A DNA stretch of 64,000 bases. Source: an uncultured Methanosarcinaceae archaeon (GTDB lineage: Archaea; Halobacteriota; Methanosarcinia; Methanosarcinales; Methanosarcinaceae). The notes beneath the pieces are model-generated. The model did no database searches and was not told the origin of the DNA. It saw nothing but the letters and a program-made list of their open reading frames with translations. Shown in pieces: positions 29,361-46,044 of this stretch; positions within the stretch are counted from its first letter, which is position 1; each line of letters starts with the position of its first letter. The DNA lies in NCBI GenBank assembly GCA_963733675.1, contig CAVTET010000001.1:992001-1056000 (forward strand), written 5' to 3'. A program made the position numbers and the translations under genes.

Positions 29361-29484
29361 TCTAGGACTTATATACTTTGGGTATAAAACAACGCATCTT
29401 AGACGTTGTGACTAAATTTGTACTTTGGGTAATTAGAAGTTTAATGCTATTGATTTTTTTTATTTCAACTGCGAAAGTCCTAGA
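29361..29484. mobile_element. MITE-like repeat copy
   Basis: Perfect terminal IR TCTAGGACTT/AAGTCCTAGA; AAGTTTAATGCTATTGATTTT core. Confidence 0.75.
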
Positions 29485-30486: not shown

Positions 30487-30831
30487 TGAAGTACTATCAA
30501 ATAAAATTAATGAAATATTATAATGATACTAGCAGATAGGTCATTAATCCACAATAAACCAGGCCCGGATATATTACTTCTATAACAAAAAAAACATTGA
30601 CTATTTTATAAGATAAAGGCCTAGGGTTTTACTATATTATATAATTTACATAGTTTGGTTAGAAAATCAATAAGTTTTAAAAATTAACCCGTAAAAATTA
30701 TAGATAATTTTTCTTTGAAAATCAATTTTTCCTTATACACCTCTATTTAATTACGCTTAAAATTAACTCTTGAAAATGGTGCAAGTTCTAACGTCATAGC
30801 TATATATACCAGTTACTGTTCATTAAAAATA

Positions 30832-31326
30832 ATGACAGAAAGACCTTTCCTTGACGAATATTTCCTTGAAATCGCTTTCGTTGTGGGAAAACGATCTACC
30901 TGCCTCTGAAATAATGTAGGAGCAGTTATTGTTAGAGATAAACGTATACTCTCAACTGGATACAATGGGGCTCCGAGTGGTATGGAACACTGCCTTGAAA
31001 TCGGGTGTATTCGGGACATAGAGAAGATCCCTTCAGGCACTCGACAGGAGAAATGCAGGGCAGTGCATGCGGAACAGAATGCCATCATTCAGGCTGCAAT
31101 CCATGGGGTGAATGTATCAGGGGCAACTATCTATTGCACACATCAATCTTGTATTCTCTGCACAAAAATGATTATTAATTCAAATATAAACAAGGTTGTA
31201 TATGCAACTCCTTATCATGATACTGATTCATTTACTTTTTTCAGGGATGCAGGTGTGGAAGTGAAATATATACATTTTGAAATTAAATGTTTAAGTTTGA
31301 CAAGGAGTAAACCCACAGGATTTTAA
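30832..31326 (+). pseudogene. dCMP deaminase family protein with an in-frame TGA at 30907
   Basis: [52 protein letters not shown]; CILC. Confidence 0.9.
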
Positions 31327-31546
31327 CATATCGCTTGTACTCATCTCTGCAAAAGAAGTTCTCTGTAGGAGATCCAAAATGATTTAATTAATTTTATAAT
31401 TTATGGGACAAAGCTCAAAACCATTAAGTCTTTAGCTGAGTGGTAGTTAATATCATATCTAAACTGACCTTTCGCAGATTTACATAGGTGTATAATTTAT
31501 TTGTCTATTTGCACACCTATTTTCCGGTAGTCGAAATATGCTTGCT

Positions 31547-31662
31547 GGTACTTATGTACTTGAGGTGCAAAATCAAGTATAAAAATCATTGCTATTTAAA
31601 TTTTCAATTTAGACAATTAAAAGTTTAATGCTGTTGATTTCTCAGTTTAACTGCGTAAGTTC
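31547..31662. mobile_element. MITE-like repeat copy
   Basis: ACTTGAGGTGCAAAATCAAG...AAGTTTAATGCTGTTGATTTCTCAGTTTAACTGCGTAAGT. Confidence 0.75.
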
Positions 31663-32337
31663 TAACATGAATTTGTATATACATACTAAACCATTAAATA
31701 GTTGGTGTAATATCAAATTTAAAAACAGTATTAATGCAGACATTTTGTGAAATGTCTATCAAATTATTATTTATGCAATAATTTGATAAAATATAAGCTA
31801 ACAAGCATAAATTATTTTTTTGCAGTTAAAAAAAAGTTGGTTATATGCTAAATTTTTAAATATATCTGCCGCATAATGTAGAATGGGTCATGTCTACAAA
31901 TAGTAAAATTTTGCTTATTATAAAAATACACCCTCTTCAGAAAATATAACTGGATTATTTAGTTCTTAAATACTGTTTAACAATGCACTTGCTAGTTGGA
32001 AGTAAATTGAAAAATCAACTACCTTTATAAATAATACAAAATTAAAACAAGTTAGGAGTGTATACAAATATGGAGAAACAAAAATATGATAGAATAAAAA
32101 AGCGAATATTTGTCAGTAAACCCGTTGAGTTTCCATTAATTTCAACGAAGGATAAAATAATAAGTAATGCTGAATACTCCAAAAATAAATAGGGAAATAT
32201 TTGTTACCTTAAGGAATATCATTATCCATCAGGGTTTATCAACAATAAACTATACTTTATATATATATATGTATATATATCAGTGTTATCTGCATTTAGT
32301 GTTAAGTTAAACAATATAAAAGGAGCGTAATAAAATA

Positions 32338-32648
32338 TTGAAACAATCATCTAGTAGAATGAAAAAAATACTGTCCATTTTTTTGTAGTCCTTTTTGTAG
32401 TATCGTTGACAGGTATGTTAGCTAGTGCACGTCCTGGTTGGTACCGTGGTGGACCTTGGGGCGGGGGAGGAAGCTGGGGTGACGGCCTTGGCTGGGGATG
32501 GAACTGGTTGGGTCCGTGTCATTATGTGTACGATGGCACAGGAAACTGGACGGTGTCTTGTCCTTCCCCAGCAACAAACTTCCCCTACTTAGGTGAAATC
32601 CCAGCAGGTACAGTTTCAGATCACTTTACTCCCACTGTCCAGCCTTAG
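32338..32648 (+). pseudogene. Small secreted Gly/Trp-rich Cys-pair peptide, frameshifted in a T-run of the signal peptide
   Basis: LKQSSSRMKKILSIF / VVLFVVSLTGMLASA-RPGWYRGGPWGGGGSWG...CHYVYDGTGNWTVSCPS; paralogous to 15955-16296. Confidence 0.75.
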
Positions 32649-33314
32649 CCCCAGAAAATAATAACAACAATTGGGGAAAACAAAGTATATATAAAGTGTA
32701 AATAACGTTTAAATGCTTTTATTAATCCTACGCAAAAATACTCGAAAAAAGTCTACTATCAATTGGTCGTAAAAGTAAATATGAGACTTTTAATTTGTTT
32801 TTTAGGACTAAATCGACTTCTTTTTATGACCATATAATTCTAAATAGATCCAGCTTTCATTAAACATAGTTTCTGTACTAAAATCTCTGAATTTTCAAGC
32901 TCCATCCAGAATAAGAAAACATTGAAGATCTGTTACTAATGGAGCACTGGAACTTCTAGAACATTTGGAGCTCCTGGAACACTTAGAACTAATTAGCCTA
33001 AACCACAATTCTAAATGGAAATATTAGAAAAATATAATTATATAGATCTGGCAGTGTACTGAAAGTTCTGTAAAATTTAATTAAACTCTATGCTATTGCT
33101 ATCAATTTATAGCTCGCAATTGTTATTAGCTTGATTTACACAGGAAGGAATCCCCACTCCATCATCTGTTATCATAATATATGAAGTTCCAATGAAAATG
33201 GAGTTATGCATGTTCACACCGTTTATGGTCTGTCGGGGCACATCGTCTATTGTCACTTCACTATCAGTTATGTGGATTTTCTTGCCTTCTGCATAAAAAA
33301 TTCCATTCACTGCA

Positions 33315-33653
33315 ATGTATCCATCTTCTGTAATTACAGGCCTTACAAGAAGAAGTAAATCTAGTAAGGATGAATTAAATCGTAGTAAAGAAGGCTACAC
33401 AGGCCAAATAAAAAGTTTGGAGGAAAAGTTAAAGGCAGCTCCGGATATCGCTGAGTTCTCACGTCTGCAGGCAAGAGCCGAAGATTTACATGATCATAAC
33501 GAGACATTAAAGAAAGAGCTTGAAAAGGCAGAGAGAGATAAAGAGGACCTTAAGACCACGTATAATAACTCCTTTCTGCAGGTTCAAACGCTCATAAATC
33601 AAAAGTCCATTGAAGCACCAGGATCTAAAAAATCTTGGTGGCAATTTTGGTAA
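33315..33653 (+). CDS. Coiled-coil protein ending KKSWWQFW (probably 5'-truncated)
   Basis: Heptad-rich body; basic-aromatic C-terminus common in plasmid/MGE DNA-binding proteins. Confidence 0.6.
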   Translation: MYPSSVITGLTRRSKSSKDELNRSKEGYTGQIKSLEEKLKAAPDIAEFSRLQARAEDLHDHNETLKKELEKAERDKEDLKTTYNNSFLQVQTLINQKSIEAPGSKKSWWQFW

Positions 33654-33659
33654 GTCCGC

Positions 33660-34090
33660 CTAAAATTCTCCAACCATAGATAACTTATCTAGAATTTTAT
33701 TCCTAATTGCATCTGTATCTTTAACTATTATCTCAACATTTTCGTTTTTATTCTCTGAAATGACGTCCATTTTTCGGTACAAATGTCGACCAAAATCCTC
33801 CGGGAAACGTCTTTCCAGAATCCACATGCAAACCGGGCAGTTTCAGCATTGGCGGCTTTATTAAGGTGTTCAAGACATTTTTTAGCCGCATCTGCATTAC
33901 ACTTATTTATATATTTATAAAACTGATGATAATTCCCAGATTTCTCTGTCTTGCCCCTATTCATCCAGGAATTGAAAGTTTGGTAAGTTATACCAACAGC
34001 TTCGGCAGCAAGAAAATAGGAAAGTCCCAAAGCAATATTGTCACCAATTTTCTTGGTTATATTAGGCGTCATTTTAGTCGGTCTAGCCAT
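33660..34090 (-). pseudogene. Terminase small-subunit-like HTH protein, frameshift near 33845
   Basis: MARPTKMTP...AAEAVGITYQTFNSWMNRG; shifted frame CMWILERRFPEDFGR... to TAG at 33660. Confidence 0.6.
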
Positions 34091-34575
34091 GGTTACACCG
34101 TTTTTCAGTTCTTTGTAATAATATATGCGGGTCTTATCTTAAATATTTACTTAGTTTGATTATGCACGAAGCCGAGTTTTGGGATATGAACTCATAAATT
34201 GAACGATTGTGGGGCAATCTCATGCCTTTTTTAGGGTAGGTAGGTTTCTACAGGACTTCACATCGAAGTCTCCAGAATGAGCTTATATTAAGCGTTTTTT
34301 GGACAAAAACTAAATCCCATAATTTTACTGCCAAAAAACCGGGGGCATCTCCGAGATATTTTTCACATACTTTTATTAATTTAAAATTATATAAATTATA
34401 TTTATTAAAATAGTCACGTAGCTTTTTAGATCGGAATATGAATTTTTATCCCATTATTATAGAATCTGTAAAAACATATTAAAATAGTATGGGGGATGTT
34501 GACCGATTTCCGTTCTTTCACAATAGGATAGAGAGAATTTATAACAAATTATTTAACAACTTGTTAGTTAAATGG

Positions 34576-34971
34576 CTAGAACTGATCTCCATGATCATCT
34601 GTTTCAATCTGCAAAAACAAAGGTTTTACTTCTGTATTACCATCTTCATCGACTATAGTGCAATCCAATTTGTACATATTAGTAGCTGGTTGATCAAGCG
34701 CAGCTGTTTGGTCTTGTAGTGTTTTTTCGCAGAACGTTAAATATCTACGGTTTCCTTCTTTATCAAGAAGTACCGGAGTATATAATAAACACGGTTTCTC
34801 AATTGATGAGTCAAAGTTTTCACTGGGTACACTTAGGACTTTCCAAGATTCTACCGTACATTCTTCCAATTTAAACGGAAGATCTTGGAGATAATCTTCT
34901 TTTAATTCAGGCGTTAATTTTAATGAAATTTTCGGATCAAACTCTTGCTTTCTGTTGTCAATAAAACTCAT
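34576..34971 (-). CDS. Hypothetical protein of the integrated element
   Basis: 131-aa ORF abutting the upstream ORF, with a GGTGA RBS. Confidence 0.65.
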   Translation of the reverse strand: MSFIDNRKQEFDPKISLKLTPELKEDYLQDLPFKLEECTVESWKVLSVPSENFDSSIEKPCLLYTPVLLDKEGNRRYLTFCEKTLQDQTAALDQPATNMYKLDCTIVDEDGNTEVKPLFLQIETDDHGDQF

Positions 34972-35205
34972 TTAATCACCTGCAATTTTCTGCCAACCAT
35001 AACCATCGCCTTCAATTTCTATTTTTTTTACTTTGCCTTCATTTACAAGCTTATAAAGCATGATTTTAGCAGTGGACCTGCTGCATCCTACTAAACTCAT
35101 AATAGTTGTAGCGGACTTAATACTGTCAATTGATAGAGCATTCAGTAACATATCTTCTGTAAATTGCTGTTGAAATCTTGTTTTACCACCTTTCATATTA
35201 CCCAA
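34972..35205 (-). CDS. Small winged-helix DNA-binding protein
   Basis: SATTIMSLVGCSRSTAKIMLYKLVNEGKVKK. Confidence 0.65.
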   Translation of the reverse strand: MGNMKGGKTRFQQQFTEDMLLNALSIDSIKSATTIMSLVGCSRSTAKIMLYKLVNEGKVKKIEIEGDGYGWQKIAGD

Positions 35206-35649
35206 TCTATTAGCCCGTAAATTTTCAAGAAAATACGCTACTATATACGATTTGTTATTATTTATACTTTATAATCACCCGATAATGGTAATGGTAAAGG
35301 ATTCCATTTTGATATTTGAATAGTTGGTTATGGAGAAGATTTCGATGGAAAAAATTAAAACCGGGAAAATTTTAGAAATAGAACAGAATAAAACGAGCAA
35401 TATAAGCAAACAGGAGGATAAAAACAATAACTATAGCCTAGTTAAGTAATATATCTAATATATTTATCTCTTGCATTTTTCCATCTTACCCACATTCTAG
35501 GAGAAAATAATCTTTTTTACCTCTACATATTACCAATATTGCCTATTTTTGCATGAAAGGAAAAAATTTGAATTTTTATAAAATATCTTTTAAACAAAAC
35601 TATTTTTTTCTCAATATAGTTTCCTATTTTGGGGTGAACTAATAATTAT

Positions 35650-37363
35650 CTACTTCTGCCAATAATCTGAGAATTTTACATCAACTACACAAGGAATATG
35701 TTTTAAGTATTTACTTCCTGCTTTTTCCATTATTGTTTTTACAAAAGTACAGACTTCCTCAGCATTCTCCTCTTTACACTCAAATACGAGTTCATCATGC
35801 ACGATGTTAATGAATTTTACACCTAAAGGCTCGAATTTAGCCTGGGTTTGGGGAAGAGCTTCCTTAATCATATCTGCGCATAGTGATTGAATAGGTAGAT
35901 TCGTTGCTTCCCTACCTGCTGCACTCTCGTCTTTATCGCCATCAATAATTAATAGCCTACCCTGCAGCATTTCGTAATTCTCTATTCTGTATGCCTTCCT
36001 GACTTATTTTGTCCATATACCTACTTAGAGCAGGATAAGCTCCCTTAAAAGTACGAATGTACTCCTTAGCCTGATCTTCTGTCAGTTCAATTCCAGCATC
36101 TGTTTTTAACTTTTTCATCAAGCTTTTAGCGGACATCCCATAAAGTAAACCAAAATTAATTGTTTTTGCTATACTGCGTTCTTTGTCAGTTTTTTGAATG
36201 CTATCAAATGGCTTGTTAAAGATCTTAGAAGCAGTGAGGGTATGAATATCCACATTAGCAGCATAAGCTTCTATAAAAGCAAGCTCATCTGCTTTGTCTC
36301 CTAATATCCTAAGCTCTATTTGGGAGTAGTCAAAAGCTATTATTTTATTTCCCGACTCAGCTGTAAATATAGTTCTCCATTTGTTGTATTTAATAGGCTG
36401 TTGCTGAAGATTAGGATATTTACAACTGAACCGCCCTGATTTTGTGCCATACTGAAAAAAGTTAGCATGAATCCTACCTGTTGTTCTTGCTCTGTATGCT
36501 GGTAATTTCGAACAAAAGCTTGTAATTAGATGTTTTACTAGCTTGTATTCTTGATATTTATCTATCAGAGGATCTTCGTATTTTGCAAGCTCTTCAACAT
36601 TTATCGATGTAACAGGAATATCTTCTTTATTAAATTGTTTTACCATCTCCTTAGGAGAGTTAAGATTTATCTTGCTAGTTCTAAAATCTTCGTATAAAGA
36701 ATATCTTATATCCTTCTCTAATCCCACAAGTTCTGATGTTATCTCTTCCAATTTCTCCGGGTCATAGTGCATACCTGAAAGTTCAAGCCAGATGGTTGCA
36801 GGAATCACTTTCATTTCTGTATCTATGACAGACTCAAGCCTAAGTTCTTTTATTTTCTCTTGTTGCTTCTCCATAATGATAGGAAGGTACTCAAGGTCTT
36901 TCTTGCAGTATTCAATCTGTTCAGTTGTAAGCTCTTCCCCAAGCCTAAATGAGCACTGAAGCCTTTTACTCATCCTTTCCCTATCACAATAACGATGAAC
37001 TAAATCCTTTAATCGCATACCTTTTTTATCTTTATCTTCTTGCGAACGTAAACGATCTGCAGGGGCAGGACCACCTTTTATAGTAAGCTCAGCTATCATA
37101 GTATCATAAACAGAATGGATATTAACCCCATATTGCTGTTTCAGCATAGCACAGTCAAATTTTAGATTATGGCCTACTATAGTAAACCTATCAAAGAGCT
37201 CTTTGTAATCAGATAAATCATTAAGTTCTTCACCTTTGATAACGTGAAACTCGCCTGATTCGGTTAAAAACTGAACTGTAACTATCTCATCTCTATGATA
37301 ATCCGGCTTCTTACTCTTTGGATCAAACCGCATAGTTTCAATATCAAGAAAAAGGAAGCTCAT
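35650..37363 (-). CDS. polA: Family A DNA polymerase (3'-5' exonuclease + polymerase, no 5' nuclease); single +1 frameshift at ~35960
   Basis: ExoI DIET, ExoII HNLKFD, ExoIII YCKKD, TKSGRFSCKYPNLQQ, motif A DYSQIELR, motif B RSIAKTINFGLLYG, NLPIQS, motif C VHDELV. Confidence 0.95.
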
Positions 37364-37611
37364 ATTGCATCCGCCCCCTTCTCTGCGTGCAATGCTCGCT
37401 TTAGGATTGCAATACCTTTCTTCTCAGCTGCAGGCTTTTGAATAACATCTTCTTGTTGCTGACTTTTAGCTAAAATAGGAGTAGATTCCAACATTTTGTT
37501 AAAAGCATACTCTAAATGTGGTGTTGATTCATGATTAAATTCAGGACTTAACCCTTTAAAATCGTTATTGTCTTCTGTTTTAATTAAATTACTGGCAGGA
37601 TCTACTGGCAA
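37360..37611 (-). CDS. Hypothetical protein overlapping the polA start (ATGA)
   Basis: 83-aa ORF, translationally coupled; its start lies in the repeat array and is uncertain. Confidence 0.45.
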   Translation of the reverse strand: MPVDPASNLIKTEDNNDFKGLSPEFNHESTPHLEYAFNKMLESTPILAKSQQQEDVIQKPAAEKKGIAILKRALHAEKGADAI

Positions 37612-37914
37612 GTTGGCAGGCTTCCGAGCAGTTTCCGATGAAAAACCTGCCAGTGTCTTTGGCTGTGTTTTTATATTTATTCCAGATGAAATCTACCCCT
37701 GCTCTTGTTCATGATTTTGAGCAAGCTGGCAGGCTGGCAGGTTAGTAGAGCTTATCTTTTTATCTGTATATTGATATGGAGAAGAGATTTCTTTCTCATC
37801 TTCTTTTTCATTTTCTGTGGTAGAACTACAATAGGGGTTTTCAACCTGGCAGCCTGCCAGTCCTTCTACAGCATTCGAAAATTCCTGGCAGGCTTTTTCT
37901 GTCGTGTCTGCCAA
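37592..37914. repeat. Iteron-like array of ~10 YTGGCAR heptamers in both orientations
   Basis: Copies at 37592, 37605, 37613, 37647 (inverted), 37726, 37734, 37846, 37854 (inverted), 37885, 37908 (inverted). Confidence 0.75.
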
Positions 37915-40679
37915 TTTTAACTGTTTATCTGTTTGATTGTTGATCTGTTTCTCGAATTCAAGCTTGGAAGCATATATATCATATTTATTAATTTGTATAT
38001 CCTCCCAATAAGCTACTTTCTGTTTTGATTCATTATCATAAAGTCTAACATCAATAAAACCTATTTTTTTCATTTTTAGTCCAAATGTAGAATAAGGTAG
38101 CTTTTTTATTTGGTTATATTCAGCCCAGTCCAAATAAACTTTGTACACTTCTTTCTTTTCAGTAAGCTTAGCAGGAGAGTGATCTACACCGGCTTCACAA
38201 AAAGCACTTACAGGGGAGCTGTTTTTAACATAAATATCCTCAACTTGCTCTATATCTTTATCATAAGAGAATTGCATTTCAGCAAGTACATTTTTTAAAT
38301 GAGGTAAAACTAAGTTGAGAAATCCTGATTTTCCTCTTCAGTTATCAGTTTATTGAAAAGAGATTTATCATCATTTTTTCCTTCAACGAATTTTTTAGGG
38401 AAATGAATTAATATCCATCTACGAAAAAATGAATAGCCTCCTTCTTTTATCTCGGGTATTTTGTTGGCAGAAAACATTAACCTAGCTGTATTGTAAAAAC
38501 TAAACGAATCTTTATACTTTTTTCACCTACGATTCTGTCTCCACCAACTAAAGTTTTGAACATATCACTATAATAAACAGCTTGATCTTTCAAATCAGGA
38601 TAAATATTTAATAATTTTCCATCAAGATTGGATACTGCAAATTTATCAGTTTCAAGTTTTTGAAGACTCATACCACTTACGTTCTTGTCACCAATCCAAT
38701 TAGTTATAAATTTTAACCAAATGGATTTCCCATTAGCTCCATCCCCAAAGAGCATGAGAGCCTTTTGGATTTTAGTATCTGGAATTAAACTGTATCCAGC
38801 AAACTCTAGTAATACCTTAGCATCTTGTTTAGAAATTTCAATATCTACTAAGAATTTATTAATATTAGGACACTTTGCGGTAGGATCATAAATTACTGGA
38901 ATTTGTCGTATAGAATAAACGTCAGGTCTATGCTTTTCTAAATTTCCTGTCTGTAGATTGAATAGTCCATTTTTCAAATTAATTAAATGCTCTGAGCCTT
39001 TGTCAATTAAATCTCGTGATTTGTTTGTATACACTTTTATGAATTTTATAACTTCAATAACAAAATCATCGTCACCTACAGGAATATGTTCAGGTAAATC
39101 TTCCGTTAACAACTCTTCCCATTTTTCCTTAAATGTTTTTGAATACTGTTCTCTAATTACTTGATCAATAATGTTGTCAGCACTTTCTTGGGTGTAAACT
39201 CCATCTTGATAAAGATATAATTCTTTTGTCTCACTTAACGTTATTATAGAATGTTTTTCCATTATGATTTTTCCAATTACGTCAAAATGCACCTCATTTT
39301 TAATTTAAAAGTATCAGCTTTTGGATCTCAGAAACGGAAAGCTCATTAATATTTTTCGAGTTTTTAGTTACTGTTGTTCTTGCCCATGATTTTGCGGATT
39401 TCTTTAACGTAAATATATCATCAGCATTAAGTTTAAAAATTAATTTTAATTTATTGATGTAAGCATTACGATATAATGGATCCAGTTTAAGTAAATGTTC
39501 TTTAATGAACTTTTCAACAGAATTTAAGTCAATTACTTTATCATCAGTTACAATATAATTTCTTAAAACAAAAGAAAAAAAATCTTCAGCTTCTGTCACC
39601 AAATTATTGAAATCAGCAACTTTTTTCTCTTTCATATACTCTGCGATATCTATTTTACTAAGATTTTCTCAAGGTAGAGTAATAATTTTCACAGACAAAC
39701 TAGTATCAAAAAGAATTTGCCCAACTTCTCTAGCTCCATTTTGTCCTGCTCTATTCTCATCATTATCAAAACAAACGTAAATTTTAGATTTTGTTCTCAA
39801 AATATCTATTAAGTGGGCTTTGTTTTCGTCTGTTGTATTAGTAGATCCTAGGGAGATACAAGGAAATCCAAACTGATTAAGAACTATACAATCTGCCAGA
39901 CCTTCAGCAATAAAGCAAACATCTGCATTCTTTATTCTGTCTTCCCCAAAAAATCCTTTTTTGTTGATAAATTCAGAAATCTGCTCATTTTTAGTTTCAG
40001 ATCTAATTCGCAGATATTTGTATTTTGGTCCGTTATCATAATCTGGAGCATCAGGAGTTACTCTACCTGCAATATACTGAATTGTACCATTGCTAGTATA
40101 AAGAAAAATGATTCTACCTCTATAAAATTCCCCTCCCATGTTTCCGGTATCAGTAGTGTAAACTAGCCCAGCTTTGATCAAGTTTTTAGGATCCATGCCT
40201 TCCAGATTTCGCTCAGTGGAAGCATATCCTAGGTTCCAATCATCCACTGACTCCTTGGTAATCCCCCATTGATTGAAAATGAAACTGTACTGCTCATTAG
40301 TTAAATTTCCATGGTAGATATCTGCAGCTGTAGTAAGAGTGTTATAAACGTCTTCCTTTTCTGCAAGCTTGTTGGCTTGCTCATCAGAGAATGGCTCAAG
40401 TTGAATTCCAGAAATTTCTGTAGCTTTTTCAAGTGCTTGCCGTTTAGTAAGTCCTCTTTCTATATATTGAATAAAATCAAGAATACCTCCACCAACATGG
40501 TTTTTGTGACAGAACCAGGTATTTGTATTAAGTCGAACATGTAGACTTTTACCTATCTGCCCCACAGGTGGGATTGATCCATAATACAGATCCCCTTCTC
40601 TGGTTAGGTTAATTCCATAAGATCTGATTATTTTGACTATATCCATTTGAGCGAAAATAGAATTAGAAGACATTTTCAA
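37693..40679 (-). pseudogene. Fused primase-helicase: Zn-finger-like + DnaG-type TOPRIM primase + D5_N/SF3 helicase + wHTH, broken into four ORFs
   Basis: GGGILDF, FIAEGLAD, VCFDNDENRAG; ITLP*ENLSKIDIAEYMKE is in frame across TGA 39669; INLKNGLFNL, Walker A GDGANGKS, shifted-frame LMFSAN and FFRRW. Confidence 0.88.
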
Positions 40680-40827
40680 ACTTCCGGGAGTAAAATTAGG
40701 CTTGAGACGAACAAAGCCCTCATAAAATTCTCATTTTCTCGAGCAGCACAGCATTCAGAACAGTATTTAATATATAACAGTTCAAGGGCTGTTTTTTGCA
40801 GGGTTTAATATACATCCAAAACGACAT

Positions 40828-41121
40828 CTATTTCGCCCCCTTGTCTTGCATCTTTCTATACTTCAACTCTTGGTATATATTTTGCAAATTTTGAACCACA
40901 TGGTATGGATACATTGCGAGAAAATTATTTAAAAAGTAAATGCCCCTTATTAAAAATTCTTCTGTTACCCCGCAGGACTTAGACACCTTACGCCAGTTGC
41001 AGTCTTCTATGTCATCTAATTTATGCCATTTGTTGTTAAAAATAGCTTTATAATTTGTACATTTGATTATTTTCGATTCTGTCAGGCAATTCAATTTCGA
41101 GAACTTGTTTTTATTGACCAT
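40828..41121 (-). CDS. Hypothetical protein of the integrated element
   Basis: 97-aa ORF with an AAGGTGA RBS. Confidence 0.55.
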   Translation of the reverse strand: MVNKNKFSKLNCLTESKIIKCTNYKAIFNNKWHKLDDIEDCNWRKVSKSCGVTEEFLIRGIYFLNNFLAMYPYHVVQNLQNIYQELKYRKMQDKGAK

Positions 41122-41272
41122 GTCGTTTTCACCTTTAAAATTTTGGAAAACAGTAACAGTATCGGATACTACCTGAATACCCTTTTTGTGTTAGATTTAA
41201 ATATAATATGAGATCTAATAACACATTTAAGTTGTAGTCAAACACAAAGTATAAATTCTTGAAACGCGACAT

Positions 41273-41361
41273 GGTACATGGGGATAGTACCGCATCGTCA
41301 TTAAAAACCCATACTTATGACGATACTGAGCCCGAGACTGTTAGAGCAATCTCGGGTTTTT
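41273..41361 (+). ncRNA. Candidate three-hairpin small RNA antisense to the replication operon leader
   Basis: Stems GGTAC/GTACC, ATCGTCAT/ATGACGAT, CCCGAGA/TCTCGGG followed by T5; TATAAA at 41250. Confidence 0.45.
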
Positions 41362-41522
41362 CCATTCGTACTTTTATATAAATATAACTATATTAACTCT
41401 GTATATCATTTTATCATCTGGTTTTTTGATATTCAGGAAATTTCGCTGTTGTTCCTAGTTAAGTTAATAAATCAAAGCCGTTTCTAGTGTGTTAAAGACA
41501 TTATTATTTAAACTTGCCTCCT

Positions 41523-41669
41523 TCATGTTACTGAAAAAATAATTTTTGCCATCGCTCGTTCAATTGGGGCGCCGAAGTTTCGCATATATTCAATAATTTC
41601 TCTTCTTTCAGAGCAGACTTGTCTAAATGCAGCAATAGTTTCAGGTCGAAAAATTACATCATCTAACAT
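41523..41669 (-). CDS. 48-aa hypothetical protein
   Basis: MLDDVIFRPETIAAFRQVCSERREIIEYMRNFGAPIERAMAKIIFSVT; AAGGA RBS. Confidence 0.5.
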   Translation of the reverse strand: MLDDVIFRPETIAAFRQVCSERREIIEYMRNFGAPIERAMAKIIFSVT

Positions 41670-41743
41670 TCTTTTAATTCCTTTTCTGAGTCATATATTA
41701 TGGGTATTTTTCATTCACGCTTTTTATCATGTCAGTTTTAGGA

Positions 41744-41869
41744 TCAGTTTATAGCTTTTTCAATGATTTTGGAAAGAAATTTGCTCCGTGCAGTTTCCCC
41801 CCTGGTAGCTTCGATTCTGGAATAAACATCAGGCTGTACATAGACATTTACGAGAACTTTTTTTCCCAT
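41744..41869 (-). CDS. 41-aa ribbon-helix-helix (CopG-like) regulator
   Basis: MGKKVLVNVYVQPDVYSRIEATRGETARSKFLSKIIEKAIN: beta strand, helix, (S/A)RS helix pattern. Confidence 0.7.
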   Translation of the reverse strand: MGKKVLVNVYVQPDVYSRIEATRGETARSKFLSKIIEKAIN

Positions 41870-41970
41870 TTGAATTATTATATCAACCCACCAAAATTAC
41901 TTTATTAAGATTATATATACAAATTAATTTAATATTATTTAAACATTTTGTTTTTTGAAGGCTTCCGCTA

Positions 41971-42014
41971 TGTATACGTGTATGCATGTATGCATGTGTG
42001 CATACACGTATACA
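41971..42014. promoter_or_regulatory. Perfect 16-bp inverted repeat
   Basis: TGTATACGTGTATGCA-N12-TGCATACACGTATACA. Confidence 0.7.
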
Positions 42015-42062
42015 CATATACAGTTTAATAAACAAGTGAAAAAAAATTATAAAATTGAAAAG

Positions 42063-43217
42063 TTAACCATTGCTGCTTTTAACTGCATTTATAAGGGCAT
42101 TTAAAATTGCAGGATCAGCTTTTTGAAGTTGCAAAACAAGTTCTGAGATTTCGGTTTTTTCGGTTTCGATGGTTTTGCTAGATTCTGTCGTTAACGGTAG
42201 ACCACATCTAAAACAAAATTGTGCTTTTTTGTCTATAATCTCCTTACATCGGGGACATTTTAAAACTCTGGGCTTCTCTTCTTCTTCTTCAGGTAATTTG
42301 AGACCTGAAGCTTCAAGCATTGCTGCATTAATGTCGTTCGCTGATAGATGAATGTAAATATTAGCCATCTGAGAGTTAGCTTTCCATCCTAAAACAGCTT
42401 TAAGCTTTTGTTCACTCTTCAATTTCTTAGCCAAATCTGTAGCTCTTGCATGTCTAAATGAATGCGGATTGATTCTCTTCTTGATTCCTGCTGCCTTTCC
42501 TATGATCGCAATTTGCTGGTATAAACTTGATCGAGATATCAAATTATAAGGCTCTCGAAATGAACAAAAAATCGGAGCATCAGGGTCTTCTTTCCTAGGA
42601 TGAATTTCCAGCCATTGGTGAAGGTAAGAAGACGCAAAAATCAATCTCACAGGTCTAGCGCCTGTTTTCCCTTCACGAAGCCACAAAAGGCATCCATATT
42701 CGTCGAACTTTGCATCTGCAATGGTTGTACTTAATAATTCTCCCTTCCTTGCTCCAGAGTCTGTTAAACAAGCTATTAATGCTTTATCCCTCGCTGTGGG
42801 AGCATGGCGGATTAAACAATCAATTTCTTCATCTGTTAAAAGTTGATCTGGTGTTATACTGCTATGTTGTGTGTTTTTCGTTTTGATGCATCCTGCGAGC
42901 TTTGGGTTAATTTTTCCTATGAATACCCTGATGACAATCTTGTGAAGCTTGATCGATGAATTTTTCAGGTTCTCAATAGTGTCCAAATAGTCGTTAAAGT
43001 CTTCTTCGGTAATTTTTTCATATGGTTTTTCTAAACACTTTGAGAAGCGTATTAGTATTATCAGATGATTAATTATCGTCCTTGGTTTCCTTTCTTCATC
43101 CTGTAACCTTTTGATGTGCTTTTTGAGCGTTTTGAAATTCTCCGGTAATATTTCGGCCTCTACAATTTTTAGTCGATTGTTCCAGTAAGCTAAGTCAAGA
43201 ATATCTTGTTGAAACAT
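42063..43217 (-). CDS. Tyrosine recombinase/integrase with a C-terminal zinc ribbon
   Basis: SGARKGEL, GKTG, HSFRH, LGW, IYIH catalytic residues; CPRC..CFRC. Confidence 0.95.
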   Translation of the reverse strand: MFQQDILDLAYWNNRLKIVEAEILPENFKTLKKHIKRLQDEERKPRTIINHLIILIRFSKCLEKPYEKITEEDFNDYLDTIENLKNSSIKLHKIVIRVFIGKINPKLAGCIKTKNTQHSSITPDQLLTDEEIDCLIRHAPTARDKALIACLTDSGARKGELLSTTIADAKFDEYGCLLWLREGKTGARPVRLIFASSYLHQWLEIHPRKEDPDAPIFCSFREPYNLISRSSLYQQIAIIGKAAGIKKRINPHSFRHARATDLAKKLKSEQKLKAVLGWKANSQMANIYIHLSANDINAAMLEASGLKLPEEEEEKPRVLKCPRCKEIIDKKAQFCFRCGLPLTTESSKTIETEKTEISELVLQLQKADPAILNALINAVKSSNG

Positions 43218-43475
43218 GATTCTAATAACGCACCTTCCATATAAAGTAGTTTCCTTATTTTAAGTAAACTACCATTACTAAACTGCAAAATTTAATGGCT
43301 TAAGAGCTTGCTTATACATAGTTTTTGTGAGAAAAGTTTTGCATTGGGAATTCAATAACTTATGAAACGCCTGAGTCGCTATATTTCTGCTAATATGAGT
43401 ATCATATTTAGAATACAAATTGCATATTGAAAAAATATATAAAGTAAGCGCGCTAAAAAGTTTGAAGTATAAACT

Positions 43476-44213
43476 ATGGGTAAACAAATATTTAACAAAA
43501 CAAAAAAAATACTAGGCATGTTAATGGTAACCTTTTTAGTAACATCAGTGACAGCCATGGCAGTAAATGCTTACGATGGTATGTATGACCACGATAATGT
43601 TGTGCAAATAACTCAGCTTGAACAGATAAACACATTTCTACATAAGGGACCGGTGTTTGTGGAGCTGAAAGCTAAGTCCTGTAGACCATGCCAGCAAATG
43701 AAGCCTATTTTGGAAAAACTTGCGGCAAAATACCACGGAAAAGCTACAATCGCGTCTATTGATATATATCAGAATCCGGAACTTGTGAAATATTTTGGCG
43801 GCTACAACCTTCCTGATGCTTTTGTGATTGTTGGTACAAAAAGCGGAAAATACGTTTACATAGATGACGATGGAAACAATACTGTGGATAGATCCCAAGC
43901 CAAGATTATTGGATTAAACGCTGAAAATGAAAACAGGTTTGAAAAAATTATTGATCGTGCTCTTATTCAGCAAGATAACAATAAATATATGCTAACTGGA
44001 CAACACAAAAACGGAAAACCCTCCCGCGAACAACAAAACGGTGAAAACTATTCCGGCGAACAATACCGAAGAGGACAATACACAGGTGGAGAAAACCAAG
44101 GGAGACAATTCCCAGGTGGACTATTCCCAGGTGAACAATATCTCAGCGGACTCCCAGGTGAACAATATCTCAGCGGACTCCCAGGTGGACAATTCCCAGA
44201 TGAACAATTCTAA
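43476..44213 (+). CDS. Secreted thioredoxin-family protein with a Gly/Gln/Pro repeat tail
   Basis: Signal peptide; CRPC motif; 27-bp tandem repeat encoding PGEQYLSGL twice. Confidence 0.85.
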   Translation: MGKQIFNKTKKILGMLMVTFLVTSVTAMAVNAYDGMYDHDNVVQITQLEQINTFLHKGPVFVELKAKSCRPCQQMKPILEKLAAKYHGKATIASIDIYQNPELVKYFGGYNLPDAFVIVGTKSGKYVYIDDDGNNTVDRSQAKIIGLNAENENRFEKIIDRALIQQDNNKYMLTGQHKNGKPSREQQNGENYSGEQYRRGQYTGGENQGRQFPGGLFPGEQYLSGLPGEQYLSGLPGGQFPDEQF

Positions 44214-44998
44214 AGCGAATAATTTGATGTAACTCATTGATCACCTTGTATTTCCGGGTGAATACTTGATTGACATCGAGCTTATGCAGTTGACTTTTTG
44301 CAGTCAACTACATAATCCCATAATTTTTGGAGTTAATCACTCAGTTACACATCAAATAATTATTTTCCAAATACAACTAATACCAATAAATGCAAAAAAA
44401 GTATTAAAAATTATAAAAATTAAAAATACTTGCTTGCCATCTATTTTAATTTGGGAAGTCTACATAGAATTCTTTAAATCCTGATTGACTTTATATCCTT
44501 TTCTTTGCTGCAAAAAACGATTAATCTTTATTATTAACACACGCTTTTTTTGTCTTAAAACCCGTGTATTCTAGCAATCCTCAGTCGAAGTTATAAGATA
44601 TTTTTACCGAATTGTACTGGAAATGCATAGTTTTTATTGAAATTCATCTTCTGATGTTGGCTCTGAAAATGCGTTTTTTGCTCAAAAAATGTTCTATTGT
44701 TAAAAGAAGCCTTATTAATCGACATCTTCCTCTTTAAAGCTGCATGAACCCTTTTTATTCAACACGCTTTATCCACCAATAAACCGTTGAGATATAAACT
44801 AGTAAATCTTCTCAACTTTAGCTGAACTCAAAATCACTTTTTAGCCAGTAATAGGGCTTGAAGTCTTATTGTTAGTTTTTGTCGCAGAAACTGATGATTG
44901 CCTTAGCAACATAATACTAATGAACATATCAAACATAATTAACCTAATATACTTATCTTATATAGAATAATGTTGTGTTATATTTGAGTTGACTAAAT

Positions 44999-45988
44999 AT
45001 GGCATTGTTGGATACATCTGCAGAAAGTGGTTTAAATAAATTTCTGGAGGAATTCATCGAAAAAAAAAATACTATTCAAGATTTAAAGCAGTTCGAAATC
45101 CTGGAAACTGAAAACGCTACCTCTGACAATATAGTTACAACCAAAAATGATGCCTATTCCAGAAAACTGCAACAAAATTATACACACATTCAACTTGACC
45201 AGAGAGTTATAACCGAAGATAGTGCCATTGGAATAAGAATGGCAAAAATTGCAGAAATCAATTTTAAAAACCAAAATGAGGCTAATAGGTCGCAGGTTTT
45301 TTACTCACGTGTCTCTCAGCTAAAGGGCCCCTTTAAAGAAGAGTTTCTTGAAAAAGCCATTGATTTTGCCTGCAATATTAAATCTGAAGATTTAAGAGCA
45401 CAGACACTTTCTCTCATTATCCCGATTCTGGAGGGGGAAAAAAAGGTAGAACTTATACAAAAAGCCCTTTACTCTGCATCCTATATTCAAGATGAAAACG
45501 GAAGATCCCTTGTACTTTCTTCGCTTGCACGCTATCTAAGAGGTCCGAATAAAGAAAAACTTATTGCACATATTTTTGACTCCTTTTCCCAAATTCAATC
45601 TGGCGATGCAAAGTTCCAAATACTCTCTTCGCTTGTTCCGCATCTTTACGGATCAAAAAATGAACTAATTATGGATAAAGCCCTTGAATTAGTATCGGGG
45701 ATTACATCTGAATATCAAAAATTAGAGTCTTTTTCTCTGCTTATTCCATATCTTACTGAGAAAAGGGAAAAGGAAATTATAGAACAAGCCCTTGAGTTAG
45801 CTTTCAACATTAAAGACAAAGATATGGTACCCCAGGCTCTTTTATTAATCATTCCATATCTGGATGAATCTAGACAAAAAAAAATTATTGAGAAAGCCCT
45901 TATTCTTGCAAACGAGATTCAATCGGAGGATCGAAAAGAACAGGCTTTCACATCGCTTGCTCAGTATCTTTATGAAACAGAAAAATAG
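44999..45988 (+). CDS. Alpha-helical (HEAT-like) repeat protein
   Basis: ~35-aa repeats EKALELA..I..E..R..ALS.L.PYL. Confidence 0.8.
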   Translation: MALLDTSAESGLNKFLEEFIEKKNTIQDLKQFEILETENATSDNIVTTKNDAYSRKLQQNYTHIQLDQRVITEDSAIGIRMAKIAEINFKNQNEANRSQVFYSRVSQLKGPFKEEFLEKAIDFACNIKSEDLRAQTLSLIIPILEGEKKVELIQKALYSASYIQDENGRSLVLSSLARYLRGPNKEKLIAHIFDSFSQIQSGDAKFQILSSLVPHLYGSKNELIMDKALELVSGITSEYQKLESFSLLIPYLTEKREKEIIEQALELAFNIKDKDMVPQALLLIIPYLDESRQKKIIEKALILANEIQSEDRKEQAFTSLAQYLYETEK

Positions 45989-46044
45989 AGATCATTTTCT
46001 AGATTGTAGCTATTTGAGCTAGCTCTTGTTATACAGGTCAACTG

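What the first reader, a model, noticed from the sequence alone, without database searches (positions are those of the whole stretch)
33315..43300. Integrated archaeal element with its own family A polymerase, primase-helicase and a TerS-like gene but no virion genes
Seen: a co-oriented module of integrase, RHH, two small ORFs, TOPRIM/SF3 primase-helicase, repeat array, PolA, wHTH, an unknown ORF and a TerS-like gene. Known: archaea replicate with PolB/PolD and an AEP primase, and bacterial PICI/P4-type satellites have the layout int-regulators-pri/rep-ori-(terS) without their own polymerase. Inferred: a satellite or self-synthesising integrative element with a complete non-host replisome, possibly hijacking a helper virus for packaging. 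I cannot tell whether this family has already been described.
Basis: partly seen in the sequence, partly recalled or inferred. Interest (0 to 1): 0.9.

Follow-up and report, generated by a model that had tools for sequence, protein, structure and literature searches.

The report
Decayed satellite-like element in Methanosarcina
This is a broken, no longer functional copy of a small mobile element of a methane-producing archaeon that carries its own integrase, DNA-copying enzymes and a virus-type DNA-packaging gene but no virus shell genes; its many intact relatives look like an undescribed kind of archaeal virus parasite.

Summary
This copy is a relic. The primase-helicase has two stops and at least two frameshifts, and PolA and TerS have one frameshift each.

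It belongs to a real family. The genome, a Methanosarcina, holds 40 TerS loci. Fifteen of them follow co-oriented replication modules of varying type, eight of these with PolA. Six virion or packaging Pfam families give 0 hits in this genome. Intact relatives in other Methanosarcinales run int, primase-helicase, PolA, TerS and then stop at host or defence genes.

The TerS family is under purifying selection (median dN/dS 0.19). In one congeneric contig a homologue sits directly upstream of a TerL. Copy number is 15-61 in six closely related genomes and 0-3 in the other 53.

Best reading: a decayed member of an apparently undescribed PICI/P4/tycheposon-like family of archaeal integrative elements. 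Satellite packaging is inferred, not shown. Seven literature searches, limited to open-access papers and preprints, found no description.

The parts
42063..43217 (-). Tyrosine integrase (XerA-like) with C-terminal zinc ribbon; open frame of 384 aa, apparently intact
   Evidence: Pfam Phage_integrase E 9e-21 covering 3-170/172, Zn_ribbon_3, SAM-like N domain; NCBIfam recomb_XerA_Arch E 3e-31; a 92%-identical paralogue at C12:12111-13256
41971..42022 (.). Palindrome (24-nt arms, 88% complementary) just downstream of the integrase stop; possible terminator or binding site
   Evidence: the repeat finder I1/I4; only spurious sub-threshold miRNA hits in Rfam
41744..41869 (-). 41-aa ORF with a ribbon-helix-helix-like pattern (candidate regulator)
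   Evidence: ORF list; assignment by eye only, no profile hit obtained
41523..41669 (-). 48-aa ORF, unknown
40828..41121 (-). 97-aa ORF, unknown; 70% identical paralogue next to the C12 integrase copy
   Evidence: no family hits
39300..40679 (-). DnaG-type primase part (CHC2 Zn finger, DNAG_N, Toprim) of a P4-alpha-like primase-helicase; interrupted by an in-frame TGA at 39669-39671
   Evidence: Pfam and NCBIfam dnaG E 1e-32; tblastn of the intact 1240-aa relative P0241 aligns residues 1-439 in one frame across the TGA
37693..39292 (-). D5_N + SF3 helicase (DUF5906, Walker A) + Pox_D5 C-terminal part, split over three reading frames (two frameshifts, near 38426-38519 and 38319-38328)
   Evidence: Pfam D5_N E 1e-11, DUF5906 E 2e-9, Pox_D5 E 4e-4; TIGR01613 P4-family primase C-term E 4e-33; blastx to the intact 808-aa paralogue F47 in three frames; sequence reproduced with 0 differences by contigs of runs from two studies
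37360..37692 (-). C-terminal tail of the primase-helicase ('orf83'), in frame with the preceding piece but cut off by a TAG at 37693-37695
   Evidence: Sequence; 54% identity over 104 aa to the open frame that runs into PolA in L039; P0241 residues 1162-1235 match
37592..37892 (.). Iteron-like array: six exact CTGGCAGG sites (both orientations) plus variants; candidate replication origin overlapping the 3' end of the helicase gene
   Evidence: 6 of 7 window matches lie here, expected 0.77 per window, 0 of 100 shuffles reach 7; only cluster in the genome among 98 sites; inverted pairs
35650..37363 (-). Family A DNA polymerase with 3'-5' exonuclease domain and no 5' nuclease domain; one extra G near 35966 splits it into 468-aa and 106-aa frames
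   Evidence: Pfam DNA_pol_A_exo1 E 8e-18, DNA_pol_A E 7e-55 and 6e-19; intact 571-aa relative P0126 aligns 1-468 in frame -1 and 468-570 in frame -2; DNA alignment to the paralogue shows GGG versus GG
34972..35205 (-). 77-aa probable HTH/wHTH DNA-binding protein (family F11)
   Evidence: Weak hits only (Pfam DIP2311-like_C E 3e-4, NCBIfam UlaR/HutC HTH region E 0.01-0.06); 82-97% identical paralogues at eight other places in the genome
34576..34971 (-). orf131 (family F9), unknown; conserved between the HTH gene and TerS
   Evidence: No Pfam/PHROG/NCBIfam hit; paralogues at 54-94% identity at 5 other places in the genome; Atlas search gave only weak leads
33681..34090 (-). Terminase small subunit homologue (family F0), frameshifted: residues 1-82 and 84-137 lie in different frames
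   Evidence: phrog_4102 TerS E 1e-13; tblastn of the intact paralogue in two frames; indel context
33315..33653 (+). 112-aa coiled-coil ORF (family F3) on the opposite strand just past TerS; last part conserved with paralogous elements
   Evidence: Only coiled-coil-type weak hits; F3 lies within 1.5 kb downstream of TerS at 9 of 40 loci
33068..33081 (.). Left copy of an imperfect 14-nt direct repeat CTG[T/C]AAAATTTAAT (13 of 14 identical); weak candidate att core, at the end of a MITE-like repeat
   Evidence: Read; no exact repeat of 12 nt or more flanks the element; could be chance in AT-rich DNA
43283..43296 (.). Right copy of the same imperfect repeat, 66 nt upstream of the integrase start
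43476..44213 (+). Thioredoxin-like secreted protein with tandem repeats (family F46); membership uncertain. It lies between the integrase and the point (44644) where synteny with sister species resumes
   Evidence: Pfam Thioredoxin E 7e-10; 73% identical paralogue inside another element on C13; host homology to G064 and G019 ends at 44644

Best explanation
The window holds an old, inactivated copy of a roughly 10-kb integrative element of a Methanosarcina species.

How intact members of the family would work:
1. A XerA-like tyrosine integrase inserts and excises the element.
2. A P4-alpha-like primase-helicase (DnaG/TOPRIM primase fused to a D5/SF3 helicase) recognises an iteron origin at the 3' end of its own gene. 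Together with the element's own proofreading family A polymerase it copies the excised circle, as a minimal two-protein replisome foreign to archaeal hosts.
3. A terminase small subunit, the conserved last gene, marks the element's DNA for packaging by the large terminase and capsids of a head-tailed helper virus. That would make it a PICI/P4/tycheposon-like satellite.

What is shown: gene content, order and disruptions; the iteron cluster; the existence and size of the family; the absence of virion genes; TerS homology and its purifying selection.

What is inferred: origin function, autonomous replication, and above all helper-dependent packaging.

My odds:
- About 0.9 that it is a decayed member of a genuine family of self-replicating integrative elements lacking virion genes.
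- About 0.4 that the family are true virus satellites packaged through their TerS.
The confidence given for this explanation (0.5) is for the whole statement, mechanism included.
For: Domains and order.

Disruptions. Contigs of runs from two studies reproduce 36293-40197 and parts of 38017-39569 exactly.

Age: the orthologous site in sister genome G019 keeps only F3 and TerS residues 111-139.

Iteron array: 6 of 7 window sites within 300 bp, and the only cluster in the genome.

Family in this genome:
- 40 TerS loci in G000.
- 15 of 40 have a co-oriented replication module upstream, 8 of 40 have PolA, and 7 of 40 have both an integrase and a replication module.
- One compact member runs int, PolA (683 aa), F5, TerS and abuts the host nif/anf operon.

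Intact relatives elsewhere:
- A Methanosarcinales MAG with int, F44, PrimPol-helicase (815 aa), PolA (572 aa), TerS (150 aa), followed by radical SAM and SNF2 genes.
- Methanosarcina sp. T3, and G024 with a DUF927 replication protein plus TerS followed by BREX genes.
- A 1240-aa primase-helicase and a 571-aa PolA on one 518-kb Methanosarcina sp. UBA289 contig.

No virion genes: 0 hits in G000 for six virion or packaging Pfam families.

TerS identity:
- Four family members hit phrog_4102 at E 1e-18 to 4e-25.
- A 35%-identical homologue (E 5e-27) overlaps the start of a Terminase_6N + Terminase_6C gene in congeneric contig L131.
- PhiF3 ORF8 sits directly upstream of TerL and portal.

Selection: median dN/dS 0.19, and 68 of 68 usable pairs are below 0.5.

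Modularity: TerS copies of elements with PolA, UvrD or SF3 modules interleave within one 99/99-supported clade.
Against: - This copy cannot work: at least six disruptions.
- No helper. None of the six genomes with 15-61 TerS copies has a Terminase_6N hit.
- Only 1 of 12 congeneric TerL loci had an F0-type TerS within 1.5 kb.
- 25 of 40 TerS loci have no recognised co-oriented replication module, and 33 of 40 no recognised integrase.
- Tens of copies per genome is far above what I recall for bacterial satellites (recalled, not tested).
- No att repeat of 12 nt or more and no tRNA in the window.
- No circular or packaged form was seen. The one joint that skips 33076-43316 rests on 20 letters that belong to a multi-copy MITE end.
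- Six short, stop-riddled matches to residues 346-436 of the congeneric TerL exist in G000, one of them 0.8 kb from a TerS fragment. They may be relics of true proviruses.
- The TerS structure model was poor (pLDDT 54) and no solved TerS matched by sequence.
Confidence: 0.5

Rival explanations
1. Integrative plasmid-like element in which the TerS homologue has nothing to do with packaging. It would act as a small HTH DNA-binding protein of the element, for example an excisionase or recombination directionality factor, an origin or partition protein, or a regulator. The elements would spread vertically or by some other route.
For: - TerS lies at the element end opposite the integrase, next to the junction.
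- No TerL or capsid in the six genomes where the family is expanded.
- Very high copy number.
- A weak MerR-like regulator hit, phrog_2474, E 6e-4.
- One source names some members 'transposase'.
- TerS and Xis-type proteins share winged-helix DNA-binding domains (recalled).
Against: - The best profile hits are three TerS PHROGs, with phrog_4102 at E down to 4e-25 over nearly the full length, including the C-terminal part.
- Homologues sit immediately upstream of TerL in a congeneric contig and in virus PhiF3.
- No DDE transposase gene consistently follows the TerS gene.
Confidence: 0.3
2. Ordinary decayed provirus. The element would be the left arm (integrase, replication, TerS) of a head-tailed Methanosarcina virus that lost its morphogenesis genes by deletion.
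For: - Congeneric contig L131 has replication genes, small genes, TerS, then TerL in the same order.
- The window copy is demonstrably decaying, and the sister species shows a larger deletion at the same site.
- Short TerL-nuclease-like fragments are scattered in the genome.
Against: - 40 TerS loci against 0 hits for six virion or packaging families in the same genome.
- Intact, compact relatives in four other genomes and at C4 in this genome end at host or defence genes right after TerS.
- The conserved block ends at the same point (TerS, then F3) in 9 loci.
- TerS is under purifying selection while diverged to a median dS of 1.4.
- The TerL-like fragments are part of a 100-285-nt dispersed repeat, not of gene remnants next to TerS, except at one locus.
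Confidence: 0.12
3. The gene breaks are sequencing or assembly errors and the element is intact and active.
For: The PolA and TerS indels lie in short G runs (GGG versus GG). They were not covered by an independent contig piece.
Against: - Contigs from runs of two studies match 36293-40197 (one run) and parts of 38017-39569 (two runs of the other study) with 0 differences. These cover both helicase frameshifts and the TGA and TAG stops.
- The two stops are substitutions, not indels.
- The orthologous site in G019 is even more degraded.
Confidence: 0.03

Closest known systems
Phage-inducible chromosomal islands (PICIs, e.g. SaPIs) of bacteria
   Same: Size of about 10 kb. Layout of int, small regulators, primase/replication initiator, iteron origin, and terS at the far end. 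No capsid, portal or TerL genes. TerS is homologous to that of a tailed virus of the same host genus. The PICI layout itself is recalled from the literature.
   Different: The host is an archaeon. It carries its own family A polymerase. No Stl-like repressor or capsid-remodelling genes were recognised. No helper is known. It reaches 15-61 copies per genome in one clade. Induction and packaging are untested.
Satellite phage P4 and P4-like elements
   Same: Integrase plus a single large primase-helicase combining a TOPRIM primase with a D5/SF3 helicase (TIGR01613 'P4 family' E 4e-33), with iterons close to or within its gene. The domain order and iteron binding of P4 alpha are recalled.
   Different: P4 has cos packaging and Psu/Sid/Delta genes, with no TerS and no polymerase. 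None of those genes was recognised here.
Tycheposons of Prochlorococcus (Hackl et al.; preprint 10.1101/2020.12.28.424599, passages read)
   Same: Tyrosine recombinase plus autonomous replication genes ('polymerases, primases, helicases'). A PICI-like subset carries terS or an MCP gene. Modules are exchanged among elements.
   Different: Bacterial. They integrate at tRNA genes leaving partial tRNA repeats; no tRNA is present in this window. Sequence relationship was not tested.
Archaeal virus satellites pSSVx/pSSVi, haloarchaeal SRCEs, and Asgard NMV2S
   Same: Archaeal elements proposed to borrow a helper's virions. NMV2S is linked to a head-tailed virus and has a helicase-primase (passages read).
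   Different: Those are small plasmid-derived circles linked mostly to spindle-shaped viruses. They have an ATPase or MCP, not a TerS. None has PolA or the int-to-TerS layout.
Head-tailed viruses of methanogens (Methanobacterium virus PhiF3, Anaerodiviridae; congeneric contig L131)
   Same: TerS of the same family (26% and 35% identity), placed after the replication and small-gene block.
   Different: In the viruses, TerL, portal and capsid genes follow TerS. In the elements, nothing of the kind follows.
Bacterial plasmid and phage 'bifunctional 3'-5' exonuclease/DNA polymerase' (NCBIfam PRK14975 group)
   Same: Best NCBIfam model for the PolA (E 2e-82). About 31% identity to cyanobacterial plasmid genes and Thermus phage phiYS40 polymerases.
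   Different: The archaeal copies form their own group at 37-80% identity in Methanosarcina, other Methanosarcinales and Methanoperedens. They are linked to primase-helicase genes.

Membership tests
PICI-type phage satellite | Integrase at one end | tested here: met
   Phage_integrase E 9e-21, XerA-like
PICI-type phage satellite | Own replication module (primase/initiator plus iteron origin) | tested here: met
   Primase-helicase domains and an iteron cluster. The genes are broken in this copy.
PICI-type phage satellite | Packaging gene (terS or similar) without capsid, portal, tail, lysis or TerL genes | tested here: met
   TerS PHROG hits. 0 genome hits for six virion or packaging Pfam families. 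Relatives end at host or defence genes.
PICI-type phage satellite | Induction by, and packaging in particles of, a helper virus | not testable with these tools
   No helper identified. The contig-level read laying gave only one weak joint.
PICI-type phage satellite | Master repressor (Stl-like) divergent from the replication genes | tested here: inconclusive
   The window has only an RHH-like 41-aa ORF. Relatives have a divergent ~400-aa gene (F44) with no Pfam or PHROG hit.
P4-like satellite | Alpha-type primase-helicase (TOPRIM + SF3 + origin binding) | tested here: met
   Toprim, D5_N, DUF5906, Pox_D5, TIGR01613
P4-like satellite | Psu, Sid, Delta and cos site | tested here: not met
   No such families among the Pfam, PHROG or NCBIfam hits of any ORF. 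A cos site was not searched for.
Caudoviricetes provirus | TerL, portal and HK97 major capsid protein | tested here: not met
   None in the window element. 0 hits genome-wide for six families. Only short TerL-like repeat fragments are present.
Tycheposon | Tyrosine recombinase plus replicative module, flanked by a tRNA gene and partial tRNA repeats | tested here: not met
   Recombinase and replication module are present. ARAGORN finds 0 tRNA genes in the window and Rfam finds no tRNA fragment in 29000-46500.
Casposon / self-synthesising transposon | Cas1 integrase, protein-primed PolB, terminal inverted repeats | tested here: not met
   The integrase is a tyrosine recombinase and the polymerase is family A. 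No terminal inverted repeats were seen (searched direct repeats only; one search covered internal regions).
Family A DNA polymerase | 3'-5' exonuclease and polymerase domains with motifs A, B and C | tested here: met
   Pfam matches cover profile positions 3-266 and 288-380 of 381. The motifs DYSQIELR, RSIAKTINFG..YG and VHDE can be read in the translation. Split by one frameshift.
Terminase small subunit | Profile homology to viral TerS and position directly upstream of TerL in viruses | tested here: met
   phrog_4102 E 2e-21 to 4e-25. Adjacent to TerL in L131 and in PhiF3. Fold not confirmed (pLDDT 54; no PDB hit).

The most novel reading that the evidence does not exclude
Methanosarcina and its relatives harbour a large, undescribed family of satellites of head-tailed archaeal viruses. 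These would be 7-12-kb integrative elements that keep a conserved virus-derived TerS as their packaging key while freely swapping replication modules: T7-style primase-helicase plus family A polymerase, UvrD-type helicase, Cdc6/Orc1, or DUF927. Some carry or sit beside BREX-type defence genes. The family has expanded to 15-61 copies per genome in one clade. It would be the first PICI-like system in Archaea and the first archaeal mobile elements that replicate with a bacterial or phage-type family A polymerase.
Probability: 0.35. Interest if true: 0.82.

Novelty: new variant of a known kind. Interest (0 to 1): 0.64.

Why it matters
Archaeal cells replicate with PolB/PolD and archaeo-eukaryotic primases. 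A family of archaeal elements that bring a DnaG/TOPRIM-SF3 primase-helicase and a family A polymerase shows phage-type replication machinery working, or having worked, inside methanogens.

If the conserved TerS is a packaging key, these would be the archaeal counterpart of PICIs, P4 and tycheposons. A 2025 preprint states that only pSSVx and pSSVi had been described as archaeal satellites before its own SRCEs (passage read).

The family would then be a handle on several things:
- the still poorly known head-tailed viruses of Methanosarcina;
- gene flow and defence-island mobility in major methane producers;
- a source of compact replication modules for methanogen genetics.

The extreme copy number in one clade, together with a flood of MITE-like repeats, is also a case of genome-wide mobile-element accumulation.

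Tried and rejected
- Att sites. No exact direct repeat of 12 nt or more lies between the two flanks, and nothing convincing came from the repeat finder. Only an imperfect 14-mer was seen by eye.
- Empty site. Searching purC and the Fe-dependent repressor across 59 congeneric genomes showed that the two flanks lie on different contigs in the closest relatives. No clean empty site was obtained. Homology ends at 44644 and at 30520 or 31441.
- The region 31400-33400, which I first took for an element terminus, is a mosaic of dispersed MITE-like repeats.
- Read laying. A joint 33075 to 43317 (skipping 10241 bases, two runs, side of 20 letters) and a 'goes back' joint 44251 to 32948 looked at first like an empty site and a circle. 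The 20 letters are the multi-copy MITE end, and F46 plus the MITE are adjacent at a paralogous locus on C13. Neither is counted as evidence.
- CRISPR. A simple scan of G000 found only two tandem-repeat arrays that are not CRISPR, so no spacer test was possible.
- Structure of TerS. The AlphaFold2 model had pLDDT 54 and was not sent to fold search. A PDB profile search gave no meaningful hit.
- Complex prediction of an element TerS with the congeneric TerL gave no verdict: score 0.00, controls not run.
- Atlas search for orf131 gave low recognition and only a weak Phi29-SSB lead.
- The viral-contig scan with the TerS alignment found 2 distant loci at 29% identity in ORF-dense contigs (many overlapping frames); not followed beyond an ORF list.
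- PLSDB has no archaeal plasmid with a close PolA; the best hits are cyanobacterial at about 31%.
- The primase-helicases next to PolA in G018 and other relatives are AEP/PrimPol-type and unrelated to the window's DnaG-type primase.
- Literature. Searches, and passages read in PMC4158269, PMC9796341, PMC3984812 and PMC3914693, gave no description of PolA- or TerS-bearing integrative elements in Methanosarcinales. The compendium of methanogen viruses (Medvedeva et al. 2023) is not held and could bear on this.

Full report
**Organism and setting**

The window is C1:992001-1056000 of a 3.92-Mb, 15-contig genome that is 92% complete. It encodes McrA. Its genus contains closed genomes of 3.1-5.8 Mb. 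Database hits of its genes are named Methanosarcina. The element has the same low G+C (0.29-0.37) as its surroundings. No tRNA gene lies in the window.

On the left are a zinc ABC transporter, an iron-dependent repressor and a truncated deaminase. On the right are a thioredoxin-like gene, an unknown 329-aa gene and purC.

**What is in 33315-43317**

On the minus strand, from right to left:
- a 384-aa XerA-like tyrosine integrase with a C-terminal zinc ribbon;
- a palindrome;
- a 41-aa RHH-like ORF, and 48-aa and 97-aa ORFs;
- a DnaG-type primase (CHC2 zinc finger, DNAG_N, Toprim);
- D5_N plus an SF3 helicase (DUF5906) plus a Pox_D5 C-terminal part, with the NCBIfam 'P4 family' primase C-terminal domain at E 4e-33;
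- a family A polymerase with a 3'-5' exonuclease domain and no 5' nuclease domain;
- a 77-aa probable HTH protein;
- orf131, with no hits;
- a TerS homologue (phrog_4102, E 1e-13).

A 112-aa coiled-coil ORF lies just beyond TerS on the other strand.

Six of the seven exact CTGGCAGG sites in the window lie within 37592-37892, in both orientations, against 0.77 expected per window. This is the only cluster among 98 such sites in the whole genome. It overlaps the 3' end of the helicase gene and lies just upstream of polA. That placement is what one expects of an iteron origin bound by a P4-alpha-like protein (P4 biology recalled).

**This copy is broken**

- The intact 1240-aa relative P0241 (Methanosarcina sp. 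UBA289) aligns to the window in one frame over residues 1-439, straight across a TGA at 39669-39671. Its last 74 residues match 'orf83'.
- Its middle part does not match the window's helicase. That helicase instead resembles a paralogous 808-aa primase-helicase on C13, and aligns to it in three different frames, meaning two frameshifts.
- 'orf83' is in frame with the preceding helicase piece but separated by a TAG at 37693-37695. In a 75%-identical relative (L039) the homologous tail is part of an open frame that runs into polA.
- The intact 571-aa polymerase P0126 aligns at 75% identity in frame -1 up to residue 468 and in frame -2 afterwards. A DNA alignment with the 88%-identical paralogue shows one extra G.
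- TerS residues 1-82 and 84-137 lie in different frames.

Short-read contigs of public soil metagenome runs from two studies match 36293-40197 (one run) and several pieces of 38017-39569 (two runs of the other study) without a single difference. The helicase frameshifts and both stops are therefore real. The PolA and TerS indels were not covered by any listed piece.

**Age**

Homology with the two closest usable relatives resumes at 44644 on the right, and ends at 30520 or 31441 on the left. In G019 the orthologous site next to the right flank holds only the end of F3 and TerS residues 111-139. The insertion therefore predates the split of these species and has decayed differently in each.

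The stretch 31400-33400 is a mosaic of short dispersed repeats with dozens of copies each. The conserved part of the element ends at the F3 ORF.

No exact flanking repeat of 12 nt or more exists. An imperfect 14-mer (13 of 14 identical) at 33068-33081 and 43283-43296 is the only att candidate, and it may be chance.

**The family in this genome**

- The polymerase profile gives 19 matches in the genome, 17 of them over the Pfam cut-off.
- TerS gives 52 tblastn segments that merge into 40 loci, or 47 profile matches.
- Clustering ORFs around the 40 loci shows TerS as the last co-oriented gene. It is often preceded by the HTH gene and orf131, or by another small gene (F5). It is followed within 1.5 kb by the opposite-strand F3 gene at 9 loci.
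- Upstream modules differ (Pfam): PolA with or without a primase-helicase at 8 loci, a UvrD-type helicase with an unknown 440-aa protein, an SF3 primase-helicase with Cdc6/Orc1, and others.
- In all, 15 of 40 loci have a recognised co-oriented replication module and 7 of 40 also have an integrase. The other 25 are solitary or in contexts my clustering did not recognise.
- One compact member (C4:167.5-175 kb) runs int (429 aa), PolA (683 aa), F5, TerS and abuts the host nifH/P-II/anfDK/anfO genes.
- The integrase and orf97 of the window element have 92% and 70% paralogues attached to different genes on C12, another sign of module exchange.

**Relatives elsewhere**

The window's PolA type occurs in 4 of 24 other congeneric genomes sampled and in 0 of 16 genomes of other families of the order. 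There, a primase-helicase of 642-1074 aa directly precedes a 551-615-aa PolA.

The public-genome scan adds further Methanosarcina, a Methanosarcinales MAG, Methanosarcina sp. T3 and three Methanoperedens MAGs at 37-80% identity. Identity then drops to about 31% in bacteria.
- The Methanosarcinales MAG has int, F44, PrimPol/PriCT/DUF3987 (815 aa), PolA (572 aa) and TerS (150 aa), followed by radical SAM and SNF2 genes.
- In strain T3, BREX-like genes follow PolA.
- In G024, int, F44, a DUF927 protein and TerS are followed by BrxA/B/C-like and PglX-like genes.

None of these continues into virion genes.

**Is the last gene really a TerS?**

- Four members, including one from a virus-like context, hit phrog_4102 'terminase small subunit' at E 1e-18 to 4e-25, plus two further TerS PHROGs.
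- In phage GenBank records, the only hit is ORF8 of Methanobacterium virus PhiF3 (26% identity over 94% of the query, E 1e-4). It lies directly upstream of the putative large terminase and portal.
- Terminase_6N occurs in 11 of 59 congeneric genomes. A profile of the element TerS found a homologue within 1.5 kb of TerL at 1 of the 12 TerL loci fetched.
- In that 9.4-kb contig the order is HD protein, 464-aa protein, DUF5906 helicase, two small ORFs, TerS (35% identical, E 5e-27), then TerL with Terminase_6N and Terminase_6C, overlapping the TerS end.
- The fold could not be confirmed.

**No virion genes, and high copy number**

G000 gives 0 hits for Terminase_6N, TerL_ATPase, Terminase_6C, Terminase_3, Phage_capsid and Phage_portal (genome 92% complete).

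A direct tblastn with the congeneric TerL finds only six short, stop-riddled matches to residues 346-436. They belong to a dispersed 100-285-nt repeat. One lies 0.8 kb from a TerS fragment, so very old provirus relics cannot be excluded.

TerS profile matches per genome across the genus:

| Genomes | TerS matches |
|---|---|
| G000 | 47 |
| G019 | 59 |
| G067 | 61 |
| G066 | 42 |
| G064 | 32 |
| G055 | 15 |
| 12 other genomes | 1-3 |
| 41 other genomes | 0 |

By purC or iron-repressor identity, the five other high-copy genomes are G000's closest relatives. None of the six has Terminase_6N.

**Selection and phylogeny**

Thirteen distinct intact TerS copies of G000 gave 71 pairs with finite distances, out of 78 possible. 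Of these, 68 had dS between 0.05 and 2.5. Median dN/dS is 0.19 and all 68 are below 0.5. Median dS is 1.37. The copies are therefore old, diverged and constrained.

In a maximum-likelihood tree of 20 TerS proteins:
- the copies of G000 and G064 form one clade (support 99/99);
- element copies of four other genomes form a second clade (100/98);
- the TerL-linked TerS and PhiF3 ORF8 fall outside both, on long branches whose placement is unsure.

Copies attached to PolA, UvrD or SF3 modules interleave within the first clade.

**Reading**

The shown facts fit a family of small integrative, self-replicating elements that share a virus-derived TerS as their conserved terminal gene and exchange replication modules. 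The window holds a dead member.

The mechanism I favour for live members is excision by the integrase, iteron-directed replication by the primase-helicase and PolA, and TerS-directed packaging by a helper's TerL. It is modelled on PICIs, P4 and tycheposons, and it is inferred.

The main rival keeps everything except packaging and gives the TerS homologue an element-internal DNA-binding role. The 'ordinary decayed provirus' reading fits this one copy, but fits poorly with 40 TerS loci, no TerL, and compact intact relatives.

**Literature**

Seven word searches were run, and passages of seven papers or preprints were read. None describes family A polymerase elements or TerS-bearing integrative elements in Methanosarcinales.
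- A 2025 preprint states that only pSSVi and pSSVx had been described as archaeal satellites before its own plasmid-derived SRCEs.
- A 2026 preprint proposes a small circular satellite of an Asgard head-tailed virus, without TerS or PolA.
- The tycheposon preprint describes the closest bacterial analogue.
- The 2023 compendium of methanogen viruses is not held, and supplements were closed. Prior description cannot be excluded.

The polymerase and primase genes themselves are already in public databases, annotated as 'DNA polymerase' and 'toprim domain-containing protein'.

Noticed in passing
window 31400-33400 (and genome-wide): Mosaic of short (70-285 nt) dispersed MITE-like repeats at 70-95% identity, each with many copies across the genome. 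One family ends at 33075-33082 with a 25-nt terminal stretch found exactly at several other loci.
   Followed up: partly
window 11220-11316; G000 C1:722961-723134, C1:241030-241188, C1:348520-348804, C4:295994-296146 and others: A dispersed 100-285-nt repeat whose translation resembles residues 346-436 (nuclease domain) of a congeneric large terminase. All copies have stops. Possibly a repeat family derived from an old provirus TerL gene.
   Followed up: partly
window 43476-44213 and 44051-44223: Secreted thioredoxin-like protein with a C-terminal 15/27-nt tandem repeat (G/Q/P/E-rich). It has 80-82% identical DNA paralogues on C13 (inside another element, next to a Cdc6/Orc1 gene) and on C5.
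   Followed up: partly
window 37693-37695: The stop separating the helicase from its C-terminal tail is an in-frame TAG, in a genus known (recalled) to decode some UAG as pyrrolysine. Whether this genome has pyl genes, or reads through here, was not tested.
   Followed up: no
L043 (Methanosarcina sp. T3) 17153-21809; L140 (G024) 11867-19998: BREX-type defence genes (DUF6079/BrxC-like, BrxA/BrxB-like, PglX-like methylase, Schlafen AlbA_2) lie immediately beyond PolA or TerS of related elements. They may be cargo, or the elements may insert beside defence islands.
   Followed up: no
L040 (contig DATCID010000161.1, 2718 bp): A contig binned as a Ruminiclostridium MAG encodes a PolA 80% identical to the Methanosarcina element polymerase. 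Most likely a mis-binned Methanosarcina contig.
   Followed up: no
G000 C13:10886-12121, C7:55194-56453: Extra Orc1/Cdc6 genes (family F38) sit between or inside TerS-bearing elements, so some family members may use a host-type initiator.
   Followed up: partly
window 21681-23712: The M13 peptidase gene starts at profile position 33 and is preceded by an overlapping 91-aa ORF in another frame. Possibly a frameshifted host gene.
   Followed up: no
window 30982-31326: Cytidine/deoxycytidylate deaminase fragment (matches only profile positions 41-101 of 102) at the edge of the syntenic host block. It looks truncated.
   Followed up: no
window 41971-42022: Near-perfect palindrome (TG/TA-rich, 24-nt arms) directly downstream of the integrase stop. 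It scores below threshold for two animal miRNA families in Rfam, which is spurious.
   Followed up: partly
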